A stretch of DNA of 64,000 bases from an uncultured Actinomycetes bacterium (lineage in GTDB: Bacteria > Actinomycetota > Acidimicrobiia > Acidimicrobiales > CADCTF01), in the NCBI GenBank assembly GCA_963731055.1, contig CAVSUD010000009.1:196428-260427 (forward strand), given 5' to 3'. The translations under genes and the position numbers were made by a program. The stretch's first letter is position 1. Each line of letters starts with the position of its first letter. The notes below the pieces were generated by a model that saw nothing but the letters and a program-made list of their open reading frames with translations, ran no database searches and had not been told where the DNA came from. This document shows positions 8,346-42,629 of the stretch, piece by piece.

Positions 8346-11300
8346 GTGTTCCTGAAGTCGCTGACCCTCAAGGGGTTCAAGTCGTTCGCCGACGCCACGA
8401 CCCTCGAGATGGAGCCCGGGGTCACCGTCGTGGTCGGGCCGAACGGGAGCGGGAAGTCGAACGTCGTCGACGCCGTCGGCTGGGTGCTCGGCGCCCAGGC
8501 GCCCGCAGCGCGGTCCGCGGTCCCAGAAGATGGACGACGTCATCTTCGCCGGGACGCCAAGAAGCGCCCGGCGCTCGGCCGGGCCGAGGTCTCGCTGACC
8601 ATCGACAACACCGACGGGATGCTGCCGATCGAGTTCACCGAGGTGACCATCACCCGGACGCTGTTCCGCAGCGGCGACAGCGAGTACGCGATCAACGGCG
8701 TGCCCTGCCGGCTGCTCGACATCCAGGAGCTGCTCGAGCGACTCCGGCGTCGGCCGCCAGCAGCACGTGATCATCAGCCAGGGCCAGATCGACGCGGTGC
8801 TCAACGCCCGCCCCGAGGACCGCCGGCGCGTCATCGAGGAGGCCGCCGGGGTCCTCAAGTTCCGCAAGCGCCGGGAGAAGGTCGAGCGTCGGCTGGAGGC
8901 CACCGAGGCGAACCTCCTGCGCCTCCAGGACCTGCTCCGCGAGGTCCGGCGCCAGCTGCGCCCGCTCGAGCGCCAGGCCGACGCCGCCCGCCGCCACGGC
9001 GCCGTCGTCGGCCGAGCTCACCGCGCTGCGCCTCCACCTCGCCGGCCGGGAGCTCGCGCCGCCTGCGGCGCACGCGCCGAGCACGCCGGCGCGGCCGCAG
9101 GGCCGAGCTGGCCGACCGCGGAGCACGACGCTCAAGGCCGCGCTCGGCGCACGCTCGACGCCGACGTGCTGGCCGCCGAGGCCGCGCTCTCAGCGCCATG
9201 GGCGGCGAGCGACCTCGGCGACGACCTGGTGCGCTTCGAGTCGCTGCGGGAGCGGGCCCGAGGCCTGTCCGCCGTGCTGGCCGAGCGCCGGCGCGGGATC
9301 GAACGCGATCGGGCCGCGTTCGTCGACCAGGCCGTCATCGCCAGCCTCGAGGCCGACGTCGCCCGCCTGCGCGACGAGCTGGCGGACGTGGAGGCCGACG
9401 CCGAGGCCCTCGTGCCCGCGTGCCGACGAGCTGGCCGAGGCCGAGGCGGCCCTGGGTGCGCCCGAGCCGGCGTTCGACCGAGGCCTGGGGCGACGGCGTG
9501 CCGTCGCGGCCGGCGACGGGACGCGGCCGAGGTGCGGGGCGAGCTGGTCGCCCTGCGGGGCAGCGCCGATCGGGGCGCCGGTCGAGGTGCAGCGGCTCGA
9601 GCGCCCGGGTGGCCAACCTGGATGGAGAAGGCGGCCCGGCTCGCCGGCGAGGCCGAGCCGCCTCGAGGACGAGATCGCCACGGCCGAGGAGGCGACCGAG
9701 CCGCTCGGTCGGGCCGTCGAGCAGGCCGTCGAACGTCGGGTCCTCGCCGAGCGTCGGCAGGCGGAGACGGAGGATCAGCTCAGGGTCGACGAAGGCGAGT
9801 TCCACTCCTGGACGGCTCGGGCCGAGGCGCTGGCTCTGGCCCTCGACGAGGCCCGCGCCCGGGCCGGGGCCGAGCGGCTGGCCGACGTCGACGGCGTCGT
9901 CGGCACCCTGCTCGACCTGGTCGAGGTCGACGACGGCTGGGCGCCCGCCTTCGAAGCCGCCGCCGGCGAAGCGATCGCCGCGGTGGTCGTGGACGGCGTC
10001 GACGCGGCCCGTCGCGCGCGCTCGACCACCTCCAGCGCCGGCGACGCGGCCGGAGCCGTGCTCGCCCTCGGGGCGGCCAGCCCCGCCGTCAGCCTGCCCT
10101 TCGAGGCGATGGCCGCCGGCGCACCGGTGCGCGACCACGTGCGTTCGCGCCACCCCGATGTCGAGCAGCTGCTCGACGTGCTCCTCGCCGGCGGCCGTCG
10201 CCGTCGACGGACCGTGGACCGACGCCCTCGACCTCGCGCTCGACCAGCCCGGGCTCGTCGTCGTCACCCGCGCCGGCGATCGCTTCGCCGCCGGCGGCTG
10301 GCGCGTCGGCGCCAGCGGGAGCGGTGCGACCGGCGCCGCCCTCGACGAGGCACGCGCCGCGGCCGAAACGGCCCAGCCGGCCATGCTGGCGGCCACCGAG
10401 CGGCGGAACGGGGCCCGGGCCGAGACGGGTCGCGGCCGCGCACGGCGGAGGCCCAGGTGGTCAAGGCCGTCGACGAGAACGGCACCCGACGCACGGCCGC
10501 CGCCGACGCCCTCCGACGCGTCGCAGGCCGAGGCCCGCGACGCGGTGACCGAGGCCGACACGCTGCGAGCCCACCTGGCCGAGCTGGGGGAGCGGGTCGC
10601 GCGCGAGCAGCAGCGGGTGGCGGAGCTCGAGGCGGCGCTGCCCGCCCTCGAGGCCGAGGAGGCCGAGGGGGCCCGGAAGCTGTCGGCCATGCAGGAGGCC
10701 CGCGCCGGGCTCGACGAGCGGGCCGCCGCCGTCGCCGCCCTCCGCACCGACCTCGAGGTGCGGGCGGCGGGCATCGAGGAGCGCCGCACGTTCCTCAGCC
10801 GGCGCCTCGCCGAGGTCGACGAGCGCCTTCGCCGCAACGTGGACAAGCGCGACGAGGCCGAGCGGGGCCGCACGGCGCTCGAGCTGCGGGCCACCGCGAC
10901 CCACCGGCTCTGGAAGGTCGTCGACGACCGCCTGGCCGTCGTCGAGCACGAGCTCAAGGGGCTTCGTGAGGAGCGCCGCCGCCAGTCCGAGCAGGCGCGA
11001 GCCGTCACCGCCCGCCTCGACGGGCTCCGCCGTCAGCGGCAAGGGGCCGAACGCCAGCTCGGCGAGCTGCGCGAGCGGATGCAGCGAAACGAGCTCGAGG
11101 AGGCCGAGGTCAGGATCCGGTTGGAGCAGGCCACGGAGGCCCTGCGCCAGGACTTCGACCAGGAGCCCGAGACGGCCATGAAAGCGGAGTGCCCGCCGCT
11201 GCCCGACGGCACGACCGCCGCGGCCCGGGTCCGCGAGCTCGAGCGCGAGCTCCGCCTCATGGGGCCGATCAACCCGCTCGCGCTCGAGGAGTTCACCCAG

Positions 11301-31793: not shown

Positions 31794-31838
31794 GCGGCTC
31801 CCGGCGGCGAGGGGTCGCCGAGGGCGCGAAGGGACCCC

Positions 31839-32620
31839 GTGGATCAGGACGACACCGACGCAATCCAACAGCTGTGGGTGGAGTACAAGGCCACCGGCTC
31901 GCGGGACGCGCGTGACCGCCTGATCGTCCACTACTCGCCGTTGGTCAAGTACGTCGCCGGCCGCGTGTCCGTCGGGCTGCCGCAGAACATCGAGCAGGCC
32001 GACCTGGTGAGCTACGGCGTCTTCGGGCTCATCGACGCCATCGACAAGTTCGATCTCGAGCGCCAGATCAAGTTCGAGACCTACGCCATCGCCCGCATCA
32101 AGGGCGCCATCATCGACGAGCTCCGCAGCATCGACTGGGTGCCCCGCTCGGTGCGGGCCAAGGCCCGTTCGGTCGAGAAGGCCTACTCCACCCTCGAGGC
32201 CAGCCTCCTGCGGACACCCACCGACGCCGAGATCGCCCACGAGATGGGCATCAGCGAGGGCGACCTCCAGACGATCTTCAACCAGATCTCCTTCGTCGGT
32301 CTCGTGGCCCTCGACGAGATGCTCTCGGGGGGGAGCGCGGCGAGTCCTCGACCCTCGGCGACACCATCCCGGACAAGGGCGAGGGACCGGTGGCGGCCTA
32401 CGAGGTCGAGGAGATGAAGCAGATCCTCGCCGGCGCCATCAGCCGCCTCGGCGACCGGGAGAAACTGGTCCTGATGCTCTATTACTACGAAGGCCTGACC
32501 CTCGCCGAGATCGGCGAGGTGCTCGGGGTCACCGAGAGCCGGGTGTGCCAGATCCACACCAAGGCCGTGATCCAGCTGCGGTCCCGCATGGCCGAGCCCG
32601 AGCGGGAGACGGCGAGCTAG
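31839..32620 (+). CDS. whiG: WhiG/FliA-family (sigma-28 type) RNA polymerase sigma factor (1 frameshift near 32340)
   Basis: [79 protein letters not shown] closely follows the Streptomyces WhiG sequence as I recall it. Region 4, [33 protein letters not shown], is in ORF 32390..32620. Confidence 0.85.
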
Positions 32621-33348: not shown

Positions 33349-36300
33349 ATGACGTCGGCAGGCAAATGGGTTCTCGGACTCTTGATCCTGGTTTTAGGAG
33401 CGGTCTTCGTGGCAAGGACCGTGTCTTCGGAGCCCGGTTCCGAGGCGACGATCAAGCAGTTCCAGGCCGAGAGCGCAGCCAACAGCTCGAAGCTGACGGA
33501 TGAGGCCAAGGCCAAGGCCGCCGCCGATGCGGCCGCCAAGAAGCTGGCCGGCACCGTCGCCGGCGACGTGGCCTGCAAGAAGGCCTGCATCGAGGTCAAC
33601 GAGGTCGCCAACGACGCCGTGACCACGGCCAAGCTCGCCGCCGGCTCCGTCACCCTTTCCAAGCTCGCCTTCGAGGTGCCCAACCTCAACGAGCTCGAGA
33701 ACGAGATCAGCGCCCGCAAGGCCGCCGAGGCCGCCACGAAGTCCGCCCAGGCCGAGGCCGCCGCCTCCGGCGCGAAGAACGACGCCGCCATCACCGCGGC
33801 CTCCGCCAACGGCATCACCGCCGAGGCCGCCGCCCGCTCGGCCGCCGACGCCGACCTGACCCAGAAGGTCGCCGCCGCCGACGCCGACCTCCTCGGCAAG
33901 CTCAACAAGGAGTTGACGGATCGCGGCGCCGCCGACGATGTCCTCCAGGGCAAGCTCAACACCGAGATCGCCGACCGCGCCGGCGCCATCACCAACCTCC
34001 GCGGCGAGCTGGCCAACCCCAACCAGGTCGGCGCCCCGATCATCAAGATCAACAACAACGAGATCGTCGCCGACGCCGTCACGAGCGACAAGCTGCTCGA
34101 CGGCACGATCGTCACCGCCGACCTGGCGAACGTGTTGATCACGAACGAGAAGCTCGCCCCCGACTCGATCACCACCGACAAGATCAAGGACGGCGAGGTC
34201 AAGACCTCCGACATCGCCGACAGCAACGTCACGACCGGCAAGATCGCCGATCAGAACGTGACGACGGCGAAGATCGCCAACAGCAACGTGACCACGGGCA
34301 AGATCGCCGATCAGAACGTGACGACGGCGAAGATCGCCGACAGCAACGTGACCACGGGCAAGATCGCGGATCAGAACGTGACGACGGCGAAGATCGCCGA
34401 CAGCAACGTGATCACGGGCAAGATCGCCGATCAGAACGTGACGACGGCGAAGCTCGCCGACGGCAGCGTGACGACTGCGAAGCTCGCCGACGGCAGCGTG
34501 ACCACCGCCAAGATCGCGAACCAGAACGTCACGACCGCCAAGATCGCCGACCAGAACGTCACGACCGCCAAGATCGCCGACCAGAACGTGACGACGGCGA
34601 AGATCGCCGATAGCAACGTGACCACGGGCAAGATCGTGGATCAGAACGTGACGACGGCGAAGCTCGCCGACGCCAACGTGACGACGGTGAAGATCGCCGA
34701 CGGGAACGTCACGCTCGACAAGCTCGACGCCAACTCGGTCGACAGCTCCAAGATCATCAACGGCACCATCGCCACGGTCGACCTCGGTGATGGCGTGGTG
34801 ACCCTGGCCAAGCTGGCGCCCGCGTCGGTCGACGCCTCCAAGATCGTCGCCGGGTCGATCACGACCGCCAACCTCGGCGACGGCATCGTCACGCTGGCGA
34901 AGCTCGGCGCCAACAGCGTCGACACCACAAAGGTCGTCGACGAGTCGCTCACGACCGACGACATCAAGAACGGTGAAGTCAAGACGCTCGATCTGGCGAA
35001 CCTGAACGTGACGACGGCCAAGCTCGCCAACGGTAGCGCCACCCTCCTGAAGGTTGCAGCGAGCTCGGTCGACAGCGCCAGGATCGTGGACGGGTCCATC
35101 GCCACGGCGGACATCGATGACCTCCAGGTGACGCTCGGAAGCTCGGGCCGAATTCGGTGAACGCCTCGAAGATCGTCGATGGCAGCATCACCACCGCTGA
35201 CCTCGGCGATGCCCAGGTCACGAAGCTGAAGCTCGCCGGCGACTCGGTCGACTCCACGAAGATCGTGAACGGTTCGATCGGCACCGCCGACCTCGGCGAC
35301 GCGGAGATCACCTTCGAGAAGCTGGCCGGCGGCTCCGTCCGGGGCGGTGCCGACACCGGTCCGAACAACATTCAGGACGGCTCGATCACGGAGGACGATC
35401 TGTCTCCGACGGCGATCTCGAACAACCTTGGCGCCGGGTCATTGGACGGGGCGAAGCTCAAGAACGAGTCGGTCAAGGGCGACGGGGCCGGCAGCGGTCC
35501 CAAGGGCCAGATCGCGCTCGACACGATTGGCAGCGCCAACATTCTCGACGGCCAGGTCAAGAGCGCAGACCTCGACCACACCGCCGGCACGGAGGCGGTC
35601 GACTCCGGAGCGATCCGCAATGGGGCCGTCACCTCCGCCAAGATCCTCGACGGCACGATCACCGGCGCCGACATCGCCGGCACCACGATCACCGCTGACA
35701 ACCTGGCGGATGGTGCGGTCACGACGGCGAAGATCCTCGACGGCACCATCACCTCGGCGGATCTGCAGTCCACGACTGGCGGTCCCGGCGCCGTCGCCAC
35801 CGTCAACCTCCAGGACGACGCCGTAACGGCGCCGAAGATCGCCGCCGACGCCGTGGGCGCTTCGGAGATCGCCACCGGCGCCGTCACGACGGCCGAGATC
35901 GCGGACGGCACCATCAAGACCGAGGATCTCCTCGATGGGGCCGTGACGACCGACAAGCAGACGGCGAATGCCGCCTCGGCCTCGGTGCCCCCTGCGACCC
36001 TGGTGCTCAACAGCGGGACCCTGAGCGGGACACCCGCCACGGCGAGCCTCGTCCTCACGGCCGGCTCGCACAAGGTGCTCGTCACCGGGCAGACCGTGGC
36101 GACCTGCACCTGCCCGAACCCGGGGGATTCGGCCGTCATCATCTGGCGGGCGACGGACACCGACTCGGTGCCGGCGACGACGCAGGTCGGCCCGCTCTCG
36201 ACGATCACACTGACGAACGCCGCTCCGTCCGCCGTCCTTCCGGTCTCCGGCCTCGCCGTCCTCCCGTCGGCCACCGTCGGTGCGCACCAGTACAGCCTCG

Positions 36301-36380
36301 AGGTCACGGCCGCCTTCAACGGGGCAACCGCCGTCGACCTCGTCGGCTCCGGGATCACCGCCGTCGACCTCGGTCGCTAG
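33349..36380 (+). CDS. membrane-anchored decapeptide-repeat fibre-like surface protein, ~1010 aa (1 frameshift near 35137)
   Basis: ORFs 33283..35160 and 35157..36380 join if one A is restored in GGAAGCTC, which restores the repeat register (VTLGKLGPNSVNASKIVDG). Layout: N-terminal TM helix KWVLGLLILVLGAVFVA, an Ala/Glu/Lys-rich coiled-coil-like stalk, ~60 repeats of x-x-[VI]-T-[TS]-x-K-[IL]-x-D, and a ~135-aa non-repeat C-terminal domain. Confidence 0.75.
34063..35960 (+). repeat. in-frame 30-nt (decapeptide) repeat region, about 63 units
   Basis: Strict 10-residue period from IVADAVTSDKLLDG to LLDGAVTTDKQT. The core at 34215-34700 consists of near-identical 60-bp and 30-bp DNA units encoding DSNVTTGKIA/DQNVTTAKIA. 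Confidence 0.9.
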
Positions 36381-36448
36381 CGGCCCTGCCGCACCCAGCC
36401 TCACGATCGAGGGCGTCGGCGGGAGCCGGCGCCCTCGGCTCGTCCGGG

Positions 36449-36497
36449 GTTCTGGGCGCATTGCTGCACCCAGGGGGTGCACAAATGCGCCCAGAAC
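36449..36497 (+). terminator. long stem-loop downstream of the fibre gene (probable terminator)
   Basis: GTTCTGGGCGCATT-GC-TGCACCC-AGG-GGGTGCA-CA-AATGCGCCCAGAAC: 14 bp, a 2x2 internal loop, 7 bp and a 3-nt loop. Starts 69 nt after the stop at 36378-36380. No U-tail. Confidence 0.5.
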
Positions 36498-36608
36498 GGG
36501 AATGGCGCCGGCGGGCGTTGCTCCACCGACGTCCCGGCGCTACCTTCGTCACTGACGTACCCGCTCGCTTCCCCGTGAGCCGTTTCTCGTGTTGCTCCGG
36601 GGGCTGTC

Positions 36609-38235
36609 GTGCGTCGCTTCACCGTCGTTCTGGTCGTGCTCGTCGGGCTGTCGGCGGCGCCGGCCGGCGCAGTTGTCGCTCAGACGCGGAATCCGGTCAC
36701 GTATCGGCCGCCGGTCGATGCGCCGGTGGTCGACGGGTTCCGGCCGCCGGCGTCGGACTACGGCGCCGGCAACCGGGGGGTCGACTACGCCACCACGGAG
36801 GGGCAGGCGCTGACGGCGGCGGCCGCCGGCGAGGTCGTGTTCGCCGGGCCGGTCGGCACGGCGAGACACGTCGTCGTGCTGCACGACGACGGGGTCCGGA
36901 CGTCCTACAGCTTCCTGGCCACCACGGCGGTCCGCCGGGGTGACCACGTCGAGCAGGGGGACGTGGTCGGCACGGCGGCGGCGGGACGCGGCGCACTTCG
37001 GGGCGCGGGTCGGCGGCGTGTACGTCGACCCGCTCGTACTGCTCGGCCAACGCCCGGGCGGCGGTGGGCTCCGCGCGCGGCTGGTGCCGGATCCGGAACC
37101 GGACCGGCCGCTGAGCGAGGCGGTCGAGCGGCGCGGGCTGGTCGAGACGTTGCGAGATCTGGCCCGCACCAGCATCGGGTCGGGGGCGGCGTGGCTGCGG
37201 GACCGGGCGGTCGAAACCGCGGAGCGAAAGGTGGCCTTGGCCCGGGTGCTGGCCGACACCGCGATCGATCTGTCCGTGCCGCTCCCGGTGTACCTGGCCG
37301 CCGCGGCCCTGCGGTGGCAGGAGGAGCAGACCGACTGCACGCCGGAGGGCGCGCCCGTGGCGGCCCGAGCACCGCAACGTCGGATCGTGGTGCTGGTCGG
37401 CGGGCTCGGCTCCTCGACCGGCCGCACGGCGGTGCTCGACGTGGACATCGCCGCCCTGGGGTACGACCCCGCCGATGTCCACCAGTTCTCCTACACCGGA
37501 GCGGCGACGCCGTACGCACCTCGGGACACCCTGGGCGACATCGGCGCCAGCGGGGCCCGTCTCGCGGCGCAGATCGACGACCTGCAACGGGCCCACCCCG
37601 ACGCCGCGGTCGACGTGATAGCCCATTCCCAGGGCGGCCTCGTCGCCCGCAGCGCCATCACCGTCCACCATGCCGCGCCGGCGACGGTGGTGACGATGGC
37701 GACGCCCCATCACGGCGCCGACCTCGCCACGGCGGGGGTGGCCATCGACGGCTCCATGGCCGGCCACCTGCTCCTCGAGGTCGCCGGCGGCACCCTCGGC
37801 GAGCGCGGGATCGACCCGACCGCCACGTCGATCCGGCAGATGAGCGAGGGCAGCGACTTCCTCCGTCACCTGCCCGATCAGGGCTGGTCGTCCGACACCC
37901 GGGTGGTGTCGTTGGCCGCGCGGAACGACCCCGTCGTCCCGGCCCACCAGAGCCGTTTGGCGGGCGCCGACAACGTGGTGGTCACCACCAACGGGGGGAT
38001 CGGTGGCAACGACCACAAGCTGCTGCCCGGCTCGCCACCGACGACGACCGAGGTGGCCCGGGCCCTCGCCGGGCAGGCGCCGACCTGCCGGAGCCTGCCC
38101 GACACGTTGTTGGACGAGGTCGACAGCCGCCGCATCAGCGCGGTCCACGACACGCTCGGCGCGGCGTTGGCGGCGGGCGGCCTGTACGTGGACGCGCGAG
38201 CGCGGACCGCCGGCCTCGAAGCGATCCGGCGCTGA
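36609..38235 (+). CDS. secreted fusion: degenerate LytM (M23) domain plus alpha/beta-hydrolase (lipase/esterase-like) domain (1 frameshift near 36975)
   Basis: Signal peptide MRRFTVVLVVLVGLSAAPAGAVVA. M23 core NRGVDYATTEGQALTAAAAGEVVFAG..VVVLHDDGVRTSYSFL..GDHVEQGDVVG..AAHFGARVGGVYVDP (ORFs 36609.., 36940..). Then RIVVLVGGLGSS, nucleophile elbow VIAHSQGGLVARS, and TMATPHHGADLA. Confidence 0.7.
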
Positions 38236-38282
38236 TGCGCGATGAGGTGGACGCACGACCCGCCACTACGCTCGCTCCCCCG

Positions 38283-39981
38283 ATGGGTCGGACGAGGCGC
38301 TGGGGCGCCGCCCTCGGGGGGTTCCTCGTCGCGCTCGAGCGCGGCGACGGGTGGGCTCGCGGCCCCGGCCGCCGCCGCCGCCGCCGCCGCCGAACCCGAC
38401 GACCCGTGGCTCGTCCGGGAGGCGCGGTTCGAGCCCCTCGACGCCGCTCCGCTCGGCGTCGACGGCGTGGGCGAGTACCGGGGGAGCATCCGCATCACCC
38501 GCAGCGGCGCCGGGGTCGGTGTCGTCAACGCCCTGCCGCTCGACGACTACCTGCGGGGCATCAGCGAGGTGCCGTCGAACTGGCCCATCGAAGCGCAGAA
38601 GGCCCAGGCCATCGCCGCCCGCACGTACGCCCTCCACGAGGTGGGGCGAGAGGTCAACGCCGCGTACAAGCAGGCCGGTGCGGACATCTGCGCCACGGAC
38701 GCCTGCCAGGTGTACGCCGGCCTGGCCAAGGAGCGACGACCTGGCAGCGAGCGCTGGAGTGCTGCGGTCGAGTCGACGACGGGCCAGGTGCTCGTCTACC
38801 AGGGTGCCCCGATCGTCGCCAAGTACTCGAGCTCGAACGGGGGCCAGACCGTCGGCGGCGGGCAGCCGTACCTGCGGGCCACCCCCGATCCGGACGACGC
38901 GTACAGCCCCCTCCACCAGTGGCGATCGACGTTCCCCCTCGCCGACGTCGCCCGGGTCGTCGGCCTGGCCGCCGAGCCGACCGCGCTCCGGACGGAGGGT
39001 GACGTCATCGTCGCCACCTCCCTCGATCCCGACGGCAACCCGGTGGAGCAGCGCCTGCCGGCGACCGACTTCCGGAGTCGCATCAACTCGGCCCTGGTCG
39101 CCCCGGCGGGCCTGCCCGTGGCGCTGCCTTCCACGCGCTTCGCGGCCGTGGCCGTGGACGGGCTCGTCGTCATCGACGGACGCGGATGGGGCCACGGCAT
39201 CGGTCTCAGCCAGTACGGCGCCCTCGGCAAGGCCATCCGCGGACTGAAGGCGGCCGACATCCTGGCCGCCTACTACTCGGGTCTCCGCCCGGTCGCCGTC
39301 CCCGCCGACCAGCTCCCGCCCCAGGTCAGGGTGGCCGTGGCCCTCGATCGCGCCGAGGCTTGGGTGCACAGCGCCGGCGGTCGGTTCCGGGTCGTCGACG
39401 CCGACGGACGGGTCGTCGCCCACCGGGCGACCGGCGCGTGGCGGGCCACGCCGGCCCCGAACGGACGCATCCGACTCGTCCCTCCCACAGATGAGGCCGG
39501 CGCCCCGGGTGCCGCCCTCACGACGGCCGAGCCCGCGGCCGCCCACGTCCGCCAAGCCGTCGCCCTCCGCATCGAGCTGCAGGGTCCGGCCGCCCTCACC
39601 CGCATCACGCTCACCAACCCGGCGGGCGCCACGACCGAGCTCGACCCGTCCAAGCTGCGGGCGAGCGGTCCTCTCACCGTCCGCCTCGGTGCGGCCACGA
39701 CGTCGGAGCCGGGCCCGTATCGCGTCGACTTCGAACGTGACGCCGGCGCCGGCCGGGTCGTCACCGTCCCGGTTGTCATCGACGTGGCGCCGGCCGAGGC
39801 GAAGGCGCCGGCGGCGGTGGCGAACCCCGGCGGGACCGGCCGGGACCGCCCGGCGGCGCTCGTCACCGCGGGAACCGGTTCGGTCCGGGCCCTGCAGGGC
39901 CTGGCCACCGTGCTCCTGCTCGCCGTGGTTGCCGCCGGCGCCGCCTGGATGGGGCGAAGGCCGGGCATCGAACTACACTGA
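38283..39981 (+). CDS. SpoIID/LytB-domain protein with C-terminal membrane anchor (1 frameshift near 38335)
   Basis: [18 protein letters not shown] (frame of ORF 36609..) joins ORF 38242..39981. That ORF has [62 protein letters not shown] and [16 protein letters not shown]-terminal TM helix [18 protein letters not shown]. Confidence 0.8.
38368..38391 (+). repeat. (GCC)8 trinucleotide repeat encoding poly-Ala
   Basis: Eight perfect GCC units encode the Ala run in ..[16 protein letters not shown] just after the predicted signal peptide of the SpoIID-domain protein. Confidence 0.9.
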
Positions 39982-40036
39982 TCGACCGCCCCAGCAACCT
40001 CGCCGGGGCTCGACCACGCCCGTGCGCAGCCACGGT

Positions 40037-40057
40037 CGTCCCGCCGCCGGCGGGACG
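40037..40057 (+). terminator. GC-rich hairpin after the SpoIID-domain gene
   Basis: CGTCCCGCC-GCC-GGCGGGACG (9-bp stem), 56 nt after the stop and 46 nt before the rpsB ATG. No U-tail. Confidence 0.35.
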
Positions 40058-40102
40058 CGAGCGCACCGGGTCATCGCAACCAACCGCTGGAAAGGTTTCC
40101 CC

Positions 40103-41065
<963 letters not shown>

Positions 41066-41067
41066 CC

Positions 41068-41874
41068 ATGGCCGACTTCACCGCCCAGGACGTCAAGAAG
41101 CTCCGGGACCTCACCGGCGCCGGGATGATGGATGCCAAGAAGGCGCTCGTCGAGAACGACGGCGACTTCGATGCCGCCGGCAAGTGGCTGCGGGAGCAAG
41201 GCCTCGGGAAGGCTGCCGAGCGCACCGACCGCGAGAACACCCAGGGTGCGGTGGCCGTTGCTCGCGACGGCAATGCGGCCGCCCTCGTCCAGCTGAAGTG
41301 CGAGACCGACTTCGTGGCCAAGGCCCCCGACTTCGTCGCCCTCGTCAACGACCTCGCCGAGCTGGTCGCCGAGTCGGGCGAGGGCGCGGCCGCCGAGCGC
41401 CAGACCCAGATCGACGATCTCAAGCTCAGCCTCAAGGAGAACATCGAGCTCGGCCAGGTCGTCCGCTTCGAGGCGGCCGAGGGGTCGGTCATCGACGCCT
41501 ACAACCACATCCAGAACGGGCGCGGCGTCAACGGCGTGCTCGTCGAGGTCGCCGGCGGCAGCCAGGAGCTGGCCCACGACATCGCCGTCCACATCGCGTT
41601 CGCCAAGCCGGGCACGTTCGCAGCGCGAGGACGTGCCGGCCGAGGCGATCGAGGAGGAGCGGGCGACGCTGCTCAAGGAGACCCAGAACGAGGGCAAGCC
41701 CGAGGCGGCGTTGCCGAAGATCGTCGAGGGCAAGGTCGGCGGGTGGTTCAAGCGGGTTCCCGGCGGGTCGCTGCTCGAGCAGCCCTACGTCAAGGACGAC
41801 AAGCAGACCATCACACAGGTCCTCGGCGGCGGCCAAGGTCGACCCGGTTCGCCCAGGTCGTCATCGGCGGCTAG
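41068..41874 (+). CDS. tsf: elongation factor Ts (>=2 frameshifts as assembled)
   Basis: [61 protein letters not shown], then [39 protein letters not shown] (ORF 41633..), ending FAQVVIGG. Confidence 0.9.
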
Positions 41875-41884
41875 ACAGCCGACC

Positions 41885-42629
<745 letters not shown>

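What the first reader, a model, noticed from the sequence alone, without database searches (positions are those of the whole stretch)
36609..38235. Degenerate LytM (M23) domain fused to an alpha/beta-hydrolase
The N-terminal domain has the M23 fold signature but not the metal site. The first motif reads N-R-G-V-D-Y where LytM-type enzymes have H-x-x-x-D. The second reads A-A-H-F-G where they have H-x-H. Loss of these residues defines the non-catalytic dLytM factors (EnvC, NlpD and similar), which regulate other cell-wall hydrolases instead of cutting peptidoglycan.

Here the dLytM module continues, after ~90 linker residues, into a ~330-aa alpha/beta-hydrolase. That domain has a lipase-type nucleophile elbow (VIAHSQGGLVAR) and TMATPHHG. 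I am not aware of this domain combination having been described.

Caveat: the single frameshift in this gene (about 36975) lies roughly 20 nt upstream of the H-x-H position. The N-for-H change in the first motif is far from any indel.
Basis: partly seen in the sequence, partly recalled or inferred. Interest (0 to 1): 0.6.

Follow-up and report, generated by a model that had tools for sequence, protein, structure and literature searches.

The report
Secreted degenerate-LytM / lipase-like fusion protein
This is a real gene, broken only by an assembly error, for a secreted cell-envelope protein that joins a metal-site-deficient LytM (M23) domain to a lipase-like serine hydrolase; the fusion is very common but functionally unstudied in Actinomycetota, always sitting between whiG and rpsB.

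Summary
Window 36609-38235 (+) encodes a signal peptide, an M23/LytM domain, a conserved helical segment and a Ser-Asp-His alpha/beta hydrolase.

- **Metal site.** Asn55 aligns with the zinc-binding His of HxxxD. The first His of HxH is missing. Asn is invariant in 115 homologues, so this is a family trait and does not come from the frameshift.
- **Frameshift (~36975-36993).** It cuts through the middle of the LytM domain, in an assembly with about 0.6 frame switches per kb in neighbouring housekeeping genes. Same-genus short-read assemblies have one open frame.
- **Novelty of the architecture.** There are 1,156 clusters (50% identity) at E<=1e-30, including cultured Egicoccus halophilus, auto-annotated as "peptidoglycan DD-metalloendopeptidase family protein". 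I found no experimental study.
- **Genomic slot.** The gene always lies in the slot whiG - M23(+/-hydrolase) - (+/-SpoIID) - rpsB - tsf. M23-only orthologues fill the same slot elsewhere.
- **Hydrolase fold.** The closest folds are bacterial true lipases.
- **Likely function.** A non-catalytic LytM module probably targets or gates an envelope lipase/esterase.

Interest is moderate.

The parts
36609..36974 (+). Frame A of the gene. It holds the GTG start, the signal peptide and the N-terminal ~3/4 of the LytM (M23) domain.
   Evidence: ORF list and translation. Pfam M23 E 5e-15. GC3 is 0.93-1.00 in this frame. The homologues' N-termini align from residue 1.
36609..36680 (+). Predicted Sec-type signal peptide (MRRFTVVLVVLVGLSAAPAGAVVA).
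   Evidence: This is sequence inspection. The basic n-region, hydrophobic core and A-x-A site are conserved in homologues. The AF2 model of the homologue shows an N-terminal helix followed by a low-pLDDT stretch.
36699..37050 (+). The whole LytM/M23 domain (residues ~31-147 of the stitched protein), spanning the frameshift.
   Evidence: The stitched protein matches Pfam M23 positions 3-96 of 96. phmmer matches DipM, Mpg, Pgp3 and SpoIIQ structures. Foldseek matches ShyA, DipM and EnvC LytM domains.
36771..36773 (+). Asn55 (AAC), in place of the zinc-binding His of HxxxD.
   Evidence: It aligns with the His of HTGIDY in 6muk/3slu. It is invariant in 31 and in 115 homologues. Orthologues in other classes have GHRG.D at this position.
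36783..36785 (+). Asp59, the retained Asp of HxxxD (Asp or Glu across the family).
36882..36884 (+). His92 (in LHDDG), the retained catalytic His; equivalence to LytM H260 is my inference.
   Evidence: Invariant. It aligns with the His of IRHANG in Mpg.
36975..36993 (+). Frameshift zone (frame A to frame B, +1), in the G/C-rich run GGCGGCGGCGGGACGCGGCG. This is a probable assembly indel.
   Evidence: GC3 frame plot. Single-base-removal scan. Same-genus short-read assemblies have one ORF here. Neighbouring housekeeping genes carry many frame switches.
36994..36996 (+). His130 (in x-x-H-F-G), the retained second His of HxH. The first-His position is Ala or Gly here and variable across the family.
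37108..37329 (+). Conserved three-helix segment between the two domains (motif RPLxEAxERxxL ... W).
   Evidence: Near-invariant residues E171, E174, R175 and W237. Helices 170-236 in the AF2 model of the homologue.
37336..37338 (+). Cys244, an invariant Cys and the proposed disulfide partner of Cys494.
   Evidence: Both Cys are invariant in 115 sequences. The disulfide itself is inferred.
37378..38073 (+). Lipase-like alpha/beta-hydrolase domain.
   Evidence: Pfam DUF676, PGAP1 and Lipase_2 above cut-off. Top Foldseek hits are Streptomyces lipase MAS1 5h6g (TM-target 0.69), MAJ1, family I lipases and BlEst2. phmmer finds BlEst2 and the Burkholderia/Pseudomonas lipases.
37627..37629 (+). Ser341, the nucleophile in the AHSQGG elbow.
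   Evidence: Invariant. It aligns with the lipase nucleophile region.
37927..37929 (+). Asp441, the proposed triad acid (in RNDPVVP).
   Evidence: Invariant. The assignment rests on motif resemblance to the ND(G)LV motif of family I lipases and is inferred.
38014..38016 (+). His470, the proposed triad base (in NDHKLLPG).
   Evidence: Invariant. The assignment is inferred.
38086..38088 (+). Cys494, the invariant Cys in the PTC motif just before the C-terminal helix.
38095..38235 (+). Long C-terminal helix (~45 residues) and the TGA stop codon (38233-38235).
   Evidence: The AF2 model of the homologue shows helix 513-557 at pLDDT above 90. Sequence.
38242..39981 (+). Downstream SpoIID/LytB-domain gene. 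It starts 6 nt after the stop codon and is probably co-transcribed.
   Evidence: Pfam SpoIID E 1.6e-24 and TIGR02669 E 2.9e-49. No terminator-like site lies between the two genes. The gene is present in this position only in a subset of related loci.

Best explanation
Window 36609-38235 is one intact gene whose reading frame is broken in this assembly by an indel error. It encodes a ~542-residue secreted envelope protein. This is the local member of a very large actinobacterial family that always sits between whiG and rpsB.

**Architecture**
1. Signal peptide.
2. LytM (M23) beta-domain.
3. Short disordered hinge.
4. Conserved helical segment, which probably packs with the long C-terminal helix and is probably stapled to it by a Cys244-Cys494 disulfide.
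5. Lipase-like Ser341-Asp441-His470 alpha/beta hydrolase.

**LytM domain.** In the Acidimicrobiia branch the first zinc ligand has been replaced by an invariant Asn, and the first His of HxH is also lacking. I therefore read it as non-proteolytic. It would act as a binding module, either for peptidoglycan stem peptides or for a partner or intramolecular helix held in its groove, as in EnvC, NlpD, DipM and SpoIIQ.

**Hydrolase domain.** This is the working enzyme. It most likely cleaves an ester or acyl bond of a lipid-linked envelope component at the membrane-wall interface. The LytM module would localise it or gate it.

**Shown versus inferred.**
- Shown: domain identities, residue states, their conservation, the synteny, and the error-prone nature of the assembly.
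- Inferred: secretion, the disulfide, loss of peptidase activity, an active esterase, and targeting or gating by the LytM module.
For: **One gene, broken by an error**
- The stitched product gives a complete M23 match.
- More than 800 homologues are single ORFs of 520-590 aa.
- Same-genus short-read assemblies have an open frame across the site.
- tsf, pyrH, whiG and other conserved genes nearby carry at least 17 frame switches in about 27 kb.
- The genome scores only 54% complete despite having 22 contigs and 0.06% contamination.
- GC3 stays at 0.93-1.0 on both sides of the shift.

**Degenerate metal site**
- Asn55 aligns with the zinc-ligand His, and A-A-H aligns with H-L-H.
- Asn is invariant in 115 of 115 homologues.
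- The best PDB sequence match is the degenerate LytM domain of DipM.
- The His-to-Asn change arose at least twice, in Acidimicrobiia and in a subclade of family f33. That looks like selection rather than decay.

**Active-looking lipase fold**
- Ser, Asp and His are invariant.
- The top fold matches are bacterial lipases.
- Pfam DUF676, PGAP1 and Lipase_2 score above their cut-offs.

**Envelope housekeeping context**
- The order whiG - M23(+/-ABH) - (+/-SpoIID) - rpsB - tsf holds in 13 of 14 relatives, with whiG not detected in the fourteenth, and in about 70 named MAG loci.
- The same slot is filled by an M23 gene across the phylum.

**Model quality.** The AF2 model of a 61%-identical homologue has pLDDT 88.7.
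Against:
- Three of the five M23 active-site residues are retained and invariant (Asp/Glu59, His92, His130). Asn can ligate zinc in some proteins, so residual peptidase activity is possible.
- The substrate of the hydrolase is unknown, and nothing in the neighbourhood points to a lipid pathway.
- Model coordinates and PAE were not available. The disulfide, the helix packing and any LytM-hydrolase contact are therefore unverified.
- M23-only orthologues with the same Asn exist. The LytM module therefore has a function of its own that does not need the hydrolase.
Confidence: 0.55

Rival explanations
1. **Bifunctional enzyme.** The LytM domain is still a working peptidoglycan endopeptidase with an unusual Asn/Asp/His metal site. 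The protein would then cut both peptide cross-links and an ester bond.
For: - Asp/Glu59, His92 and His130 are invariant, and so is Asn55.
- An extra His (His87) is invariant in the fused Acidimicrobiales clade.
- Orthologues in other classes keep the full zinc triad, and a few have the canonical HLHF.
- NCBI names the family a DD-metalloendopeptidase.
Against: - Two of the five canonical residues are missing, including a zinc ligand.
- Substituted LytM domains lack zinc in solved structures (PMC8416486).
- His87 is not conserved in the M23-only orthologues that also carry Asn.
- The M23 score here is 56.7 bits, against 113-126 bits for the three best-scoring M23 domains in the same genome.
Confidence: 0.2
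2. **Classical trans-acting dLytM factor.** The LytM groove activates a separate cell-wall hydrolase, such as the genome's single Amidase_3 enzyme or the adjacent SpoIID/LytB protein. The alpha/beta-hydrolase domain would be an accessory or an independent activity.
For: [quoted passage not shown]
- NCBIfam's nearest models are NlpD, ActS, DipM and SpoIIQ.
- One Amidase_3 gene exists in the genome.
- The SpoIID gene starts 6 nt after the stop codon.
- M23-only orthologues with Asn fill the same slot, so the LytM module works without the hydrolase.
Against: - SpoIID adjacency is confined to a subset of loci.
- The amidase is unlinked, on contig C15.
- No interaction data exist.
- This reading does not explain why an invariant Ser-Asp-His hydrolase is kept in more than 1,000 clusters.
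Confidence: 0.15
3. **Pseudogene.** The frameshift is real and the gene is dead in this organism.
For: The assembly as given has a +1 frame break at about 36975-36993.
Against: - There is only one break and no stop codon in either half.
- Every family-invariant residue is intact.
- The GC3 signal is undiminished on both sides.
- The assembly shows about 0.6 frame switches per kb even in essential genes such as tsf and pyrH.
Confidence: 0.05
4. **Two separate genes.** A small M23 protein and a hydrolase are encoded separately.
For: M23-only orthologues do exist in other Acidimicrobiia.
Against: - The break lies inside the M23 domain. Its last strands (HFGAR...YVDP) are in frame B.
- Frame A has no stop codon until 39002, and frame B has no plausible start or ribosome-binding site after the break.
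- All close homologues are single ORFs.
Confidence: 0.02

Closest known systems
Degenerate LytM factors NlpD, DipM and EnvC (Proteobacteria) and SpoIIQ (Bacillus)
   Same: - They share the M23/LytM fold with substituted metal-site residues.
- They are the best PDB sequence and fold matches: DipM 7qrl, EnvC 4bh5 and SpoIIQ 3uz0.
- Like NlpD, this protein keeps two of the four HxxxD/HxH residues (PMC8416486).
- From memory, B. subtilis SpoIIQ also lacks the first His of HxxxD.
   Different: - There is no LysM domain, coiled-coil domain or membrane anchor.
- The LytM module is N-terminal and is followed by a catalytic alpha/beta hydrolase.
- The substitution is a strictly conserved Asn.
- The organism is an actinobacterium, presumed monoderm.
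- Amidase activation has not been tested.
M23 gene in the actinobacterial whiG-rpsB slot (Rv2891, next to rpsB in M. tuberculosis from memory, and a probable Streptomyces counterpart between whiG and rpsB)
   Same: - It occupies the same chromosomal slot immediately upstream of rpsB-tsf.
- It has the same LytM domain family.
- Rv2891 is listed as an M23 gene of unknown function (PMC8594824).
   Different: - Those orthologues are M23-only, and the examined Actinomycetota orthologues outside Acidimicrobiia mostly keep the HxxxD His (GHRG.D).
- The gene here carries Asn and a C-terminal lipase-like domain.
Bacterial true lipases: Streptomyces MAS1 (5h6g), MAJ1 (7v3k), family I.1/I.2 Pseudomonas and Burkholderia lipases, and Bacillus licheniformis BlEst2 (6wpx)
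   Same: - They share the alpha/beta core.
- They share the [AG]-H-S-x-G-G elbow followed by the T-P-H-x-G motif.
- TM-target is 0.69 to 5h6g.
   Different: - Sequence identity is only about 20%.
- The domain here is embedded between a conserved helical segment and a 45-residue C-terminal helix with a conserved Cys pair.
- It is fused to a LytM domain.
- Lipolytic activity has not been tested.
Egicoccus halophilus "peptidoglycan DD-metalloendopeptidase family protein" (P0121)
   Same: - It has the same M23 plus alpha/beta-hydrolase fusion in the same whiG-rpsB slot, in a cultured actinobacterium.
   Different: - It keeps the HxxxD His (GHRGVDL).
- It has a shorter, non-helical inter-domain segment and no CTP/PTC Cys pair.
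- It is only about 35-40% identical in the hydrolase domain.

Membership tests
Peptidase M23 / LytM fold (Pfam PF01551) | Significant match to the family profile over the whole domain. | tested here: met
   57.9 bits against a cut-off of 28.7, HMM positions 3-96 of 96 on the stitched protein. 55.8 bits on frame A alone.
Peptidase M23 / LytM fold (Pfam PF01551) | LytM beta-fold. | tested here: met
   The AF2 model of a 61%-identical homologue (pLDDT 88.7) matches ShyA, DipM, EnvC and Pgp3 with probability 1.00.
Catalytically active M23 metallopeptidase | His of HxxxD (first zinc ligand). | tested here: not met
   Asn55, which is invariant in 115 homologues and aligns with the His of HTGIDY.
Catalytically active M23 metallopeptidase | Asp of HxxxD. 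| tested here: met
   Asp59 (Asp or Glu across the family).
Catalytically active M23 metallopeptidase | First His of HxH. | tested here: not met
   The position is Ala or Gly here under every single-base repair tested, and variable (P, G, R, A, S, L) in homologues.
Catalytically active M23 metallopeptidase | Second His of HxH (zinc ligand). | tested here: met
   His130 is invariant.
Catalytically active M23 metallopeptidase | Zinc binding and peptidoglycan cleavage. | not testable with these tools
   This needs metal analysis and zymography or muropeptide analysis.
dLytM regulatory factor (EnvC/NlpD/DipM type) | LytM domain with substituted catalytic or metal residues. | tested here: met
   Two of the four HxxxD/HxH residues are substituted, which is the same degree as described for NlpD.
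dLytM regulatory factor (EnvC/NlpD/DipM type) | Activates a cognate cell-wall hydrolase (amidase) through its groove. | not testable with these tools
   The genome has one Amidase_3 gene, but there is no linkage and no interaction data.
Ser-Asp-His alpha/beta hydrolase (Pfam DUF676, PGAP1, Lipase_2; AB_hydrolase clan) | Profile match above the curated cut-off. | tested here: met
   DUF676 39.3 against 20.3, PGAP1 29.0 against 24.3, Lipase_2 22.3 against 20.3.
Ser-Asp-His alpha/beta hydrolase (Pfam DUF676, PGAP1, Lipase_2; AB_hydrolase clan) | Nucleophile elbow G/A-x-S-x-G plus conserved acid and His. | tested here: met
   AHS341QGG, D441 and H470 are invariant in 115 sequences.
Bacterial true lipases (family I-like) | Fold and motif similarity ([AG]HSxGG ... 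TPHxG). | tested here: met
   The top Foldseek hits are 5h6g, 7v3k, 1ex9, 1cvl and 6wpx. phmmer E-values are 1e-4 to 5e-4 to BlEst2 and to the Burkholderia/Pseudomonas lipases over the elbow-TPHxG stretch.
Bacterial true lipases (family I-like) | Hydrolysis of long-chain acyl esters. | not testable with these tools
   This needs enzyme assays.

The most novel reading that the evidence does not exclude
The LytM-lipase fusion defines a new kind of LytM-controlled envelope enzyme. In this reading, a metal-free LytM groove either reads peptidoglycan or holds an intramolecular helix. That gates a wall-tethered lipase which deacylates a lipid-linked cell-wall component, such as a lipoglycan, a lipoprotein or a polyprenyl-linked precursor. 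The function would be conserved at the whiG-rpsB locus across deep-branching Actinomycetota.
Probability: 0.25. Interest if true: 0.65.

Novelty: new variant of a known kind. Interest (0 to 1): 0.42.

Why it matters
LytM/M23 domains are known either as peptidoglycan endopeptidases or as metal-free activators of amidases. They have been studied almost only in Proteobacteria and Firmicutes. Here a LytM domain with a strictly conserved His-to-Asn substitution is covalently joined to a lipase-type serine hydrolase. The family has more than a thousand sequence clusters and holds a fixed chromosomal slot next to rpsB throughout Actinomycetota.

Nobody appears to have studied it. A 2022 review that counted over 1,000 M23 architectures does not mention a lipase or esterase partner. 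Working out its substrate could reveal a link between peptidoglycan and lipid or lipoglycan turnover in actinobacteria. It could also give a function to the M23-only gene in the same slot next to rpsB (for example Rv2891). Cultured carriers such as Egicoccus halophilus make this testable.

For genome annotation, there are two lessons. The automatic name "DD-metalloendopeptidase" is probably wrong for the Acidimicrobiia clade. The frameshift is an assembly artefact.

Tried and rejected
2. **Programmed frameshift.** Rejected. Same-genus short-read assemblies have an open frame here. The only other broken orthologue (G004, also a low-contig assembly) is broken about 50 nt further on, at a CCCC run.
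3. **The frameshift creating the apparent loss of HxH.** Rejected. No single-base removal between GDVVGT and His130 gives His at the -2 position. A two-base addition would give G-L-H-F-G, which is the family consensus.
4. **GC3 plot suggesting a third frame at 36970-37160.** Rejected. That frame has a stop codon and no similarity to homologues. The high position-2 GC there reflects a Gly/Arg/Pro/Ala-rich stretch.
5. **SpoIID as an obligate partner.** Not supported by synteny.
6. **Phage origin or a LysB-like fusion.** The viral structure library gave only M23-domain matches and no M23-lipase fusion.
7. **Promoter and terminator scan of 36300-40200.** Uninformative: no sigma-70-like site, and one weak terminator-like hairpin just upstream of the start codon. 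A WhiG-type promoter was not tested.
8. **Tree of the M23 domain, to count gains and losses of the hydrolase.** The His and Asn clades separate, but my automatic fused/M23-only labels were contaminated by truncated or frameshifted loci. The number of losses is therefore not reliable.
9. **Literature.** No paper was found on this fusion, on SCO5623, or on the function of Rv2891.
Full report
**1. What is in the sequence**

The window is 72% G+C. Two overlapping open frames on the + strand cover the finding.
- Frame A starts at GTG 36609. It reads MRRFTVVLVVLVGLSAAPAGAVVAQ..., followed by an M23/LytM domain (Pfam PF01551, E 5e-15, HMM positions 3-72 of 96).
- Frame B (36940-38235) continues with ...AAHFGARVGGVYVDPLVLLGQ and then an alpha/beta hydrolase. 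It hits DUF676 (39.3 bits), PGAP1 and Lipase_2, all above their curated cut-offs.
- Joining the frames turns the partial M23 match into a complete one (HMM 3-96 of 96). So the break lies inside one domain and is not a gene boundary.

**2. The frameshift**

The change from frame A to frame B is +1. It must fall between about 36975 and 36993, in the run GGCGGCGGCGGGACGCGGCG. The indirect evidence is nevertheless strong.
- The genome has 22 contigs and 0.06% contamination but scores only 54% complete. That pattern is typical of an indel-rich long-read assembly.
- The neighbouring essential genes are riddled with frame switches. tsf has two, pyrH at least four and whiG one. In total there are at least 17 in conserved genes between 19.6 and 47 kb, which is about 0.6 per kb. 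One break in a 1.6-kb gene is what that rate predicts.
- Third-position G+C stays at 0.93-1.00 on both sides of the break, and every family-invariant residue is intact.
- Three same-genus short-read assemblies have a single open frame across this site. The one other broken orthologue (G004, also a low-contig assembly) is broken elsewhere, at a CCCC run. A conserved programmed frameshift is therefore excluded.
- Removing any single base in the zone leaves Ala, Gly or Arg at the position of the first His of HxH. Adding two bases would give G-L-H-F-G, which is the family consensus.

**3. The LytM domain is degenerate across the whole family**

phmmer alignments to solved M23 enzymes give the following correspondences:

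| Residue here | Aligns with |
|---|---|
| Asn55 | the zinc-binding His of H-T-G-I-D-Y (Neisseria Mpg) |
| Asp59 | the Asp of the same motif |
| His92 | the His of the I-R-H-A-N-G strand |
| A-A-His130 | H-L-H |

- In alignments of 31 and 115 full-length homologues, Asn55, His92 and His130 are invariant. Position 59 is Asp or Glu. The first-His position of HxH is variable.
- The best PDB sequence match is the degenerate LytM domain of DipM, and SpoIIQ also matches.
- The M23 score here is 56.7 bits, against 113-126 bits for the three best-scoring M23 domains in the same genome.
- According to PMC8416486, the site is defined by HxxxD and HxH. LytM domains substituted at these positions contain no zinc in crystals, and NlpD-type factors typically keep two of the four residues. 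That is the situation here.
- The sequence-level claim that the M23 domain is degenerate is therefore supported. Whether it is truly inactive remains untested.

**4. The hydrolase domain**

- Ser341 (in AHSQGG), Asp441 and His470 are invariant in 115 sequences.
- I modelled a 61%-identical homologue (P0001) with a 115-sequence alignment. The model has pLDDT 88.7 and pTM 0.70. Its parts are listed below.

| Residues in P0001 | Element |
|---|---|
| 39-144 | LytM beta-domain |
| 154-168 | disordered hinge |
| 170-236 | three helices |
| 271-503 | alpha/beta core |
| 513-557 | one 45-residue C-terminal helix |

- Foldseek against the PDB puts bacterial lipases first for the C-terminal part. These are Streptomyces MAS1 5h6g (TM-target 0.69), MAJ1 7v3k, the Pseudomonas, Burkholderia and Proteus family I lipases, and BlEst2. 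For the N-terminal part it finds the ShyA, DipM and EnvC LytM domains.
- phmmer finds the same lipases over the elbow-TPHxG stretch.
- Two Cys residues (244 and 494 here) are invariant. They flank the helical segment and the C-terminal helix. I infer a disulfide, which would fit an extracytoplasmic protein.

**5. The family and its genomic slot**

- The fusion is abundant. I found more than 800 90%-identity clusters among the candidates scored. I also found 1,156 50%-identity cluster representatives at E<=1e-30, and the best 150 are mostly about 500-600 aa and cover most or all of the profile.
- The named records are Acidimicrobiales, Microthrixaceae, Iamiaceae and Acidimicrobiaceae MAGs. NCBI calls them "peptidoglycan DD-metalloendopeptidase family protein".
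- In 13 of 14 relatives' contigs the order is whiG - M23-hydrolase - rpsB - tsf; in the fourteenth (L018) whiG was not detected. The same order holds in about 70 named MAG loci.
- The fibre gene and the SpoIID/LytB gene are clade-specific insertions into that slot.
- Other Acidimicrobiia carry an M23-only orthologue with the same GNRG.[DE]Y motif in the same slot. It ends shortly after a conserved RLVP strand.
- Across the phylum the slot again holds an M23 gene, but usually with GHRG.D, so the zinc His is kept. Fused forms with His occur in several other families.
- One of those fused forms is the cultured Egicoccus halophilus.
- A large-genome handle (9.2 Mb, probably Streptomyces) has an M23-only gene between whiG and rpsB. 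M. tuberculosis Rv2891, which from memory lies next to rpsB, is listed as an M23 gene of unknown function (PMC8594824).
- A domain tree separates the His-type and Asn-type clades. It also shows a second, independent His-to-Asn change inside family f33. Fusion and degeneracy are therefore separate evolutionary events, and Asn looks selected rather than drifted.

**6. How it most likely works**

- *Shown:* domain identities, residue states, conservation and synteny.
- *Inferred:* the protein is exported, based on the signal peptide and the conserved Cys pair.
- *Inferred:* the Asn-type LytM domain no longer cleaves peptidoglycan and serves as a binding module.
- *Inferred:* the lipase-like domain is the active enzyme. 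It would work on an ester- or acyl-linked envelope component at the membrane-wall interface.
- *Inferred:* the helical bundle acts as a cap or an interaction platform.

The main rival readings are these.
- The LytM domain is still active, using an unusual Asn-containing metal site.
- The LytM domain is a classical trans-activator. Its target would be the genome's single Amidase_3 or the adjacent SpoIID protein.

A true pseudogene and two separate genes are both unlikely.

**7. Novelty**

- The architecture is not new to sequence databases, and it is not restricted to this organism.
- I found no experimental or descriptive literature on it. A 2022 review that counted more than 1,000 M23 architectures mentions no lipase or esterase partner. 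The viral structure library contains no such fusion.
- I class it as a new variant of a known kind. It combines a LytM factor and a lipase-fold hydrolase and is widespread but unstudied.
- Interest is moderate. The automatic annotation is probably misleading, and the conserved whiG-rpsB position suggests a basic envelope role. However, there is no hint yet of the substrate.

Noticed in passing
window 41068-42602: tsf and pyrH are each split over two or three reading frames: tsf has 2 switches and pyrH at least 4. whiG (31806-32608) has one. These look like assembly indels, not biology. Any frame-dependent finding in this genome needs that caveat.
   Followed up: partly
L096 and L114 (G058, family f33), M23 motif GNRGLDY: A second, independent His-to-Asn change at the first zinc-ligand position sits inside an otherwise His-type (GHRG) fused clade outside Acidimicrobiia. 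Convergence suggests that Asn is selected.
   Followed up: partly
L016 (G004:C9) about 8960-8975: The same-genus orthologue in another low-contig assembly is also frameshifted, but at a CCCC homopolymer after YLDP, about 50 nt downstream of the site broken here. This is an independent error.
   Followed up: yes
L043 (CAMAQM010000038.1): A MAG record titled "Bifidobacterium breve" carries the Acidimicrobiia-type M23-hydrolase - rpsB - tsf locus and clusters with Acidimicrobiales sequences in the M23 tree. The taxonomy label or the binning of that contig is probably wrong.
   Followed up: no
window 37336-37338 and 38086-38088: An invariant Cys pair (CTP ... PTC) flanks the hydrolase domain. A similarly placed Cys pair appears in several of the f33 fused proteins examined, but not in the Egicoccus-type proteins.
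   Followed up: partly
window 38233-38244: The SpoIID/LytB gene starts 6 nt after the stop codon of the fusion gene, with no terminator-like site between them. The two genes are probably one transcription unit in this clade.
   Followed up: partly
L078 and L091 (M23-only loci): In two Acidimicrobiia loci the stop-to-stop open frame carrying the Asn-type M23 domain is 821-842 aa long, with the domain at the C-terminal end. This may be a different N-terminal fusion, or just a long spurious upstream open frame in high-GC DNA.
   Followed up: no
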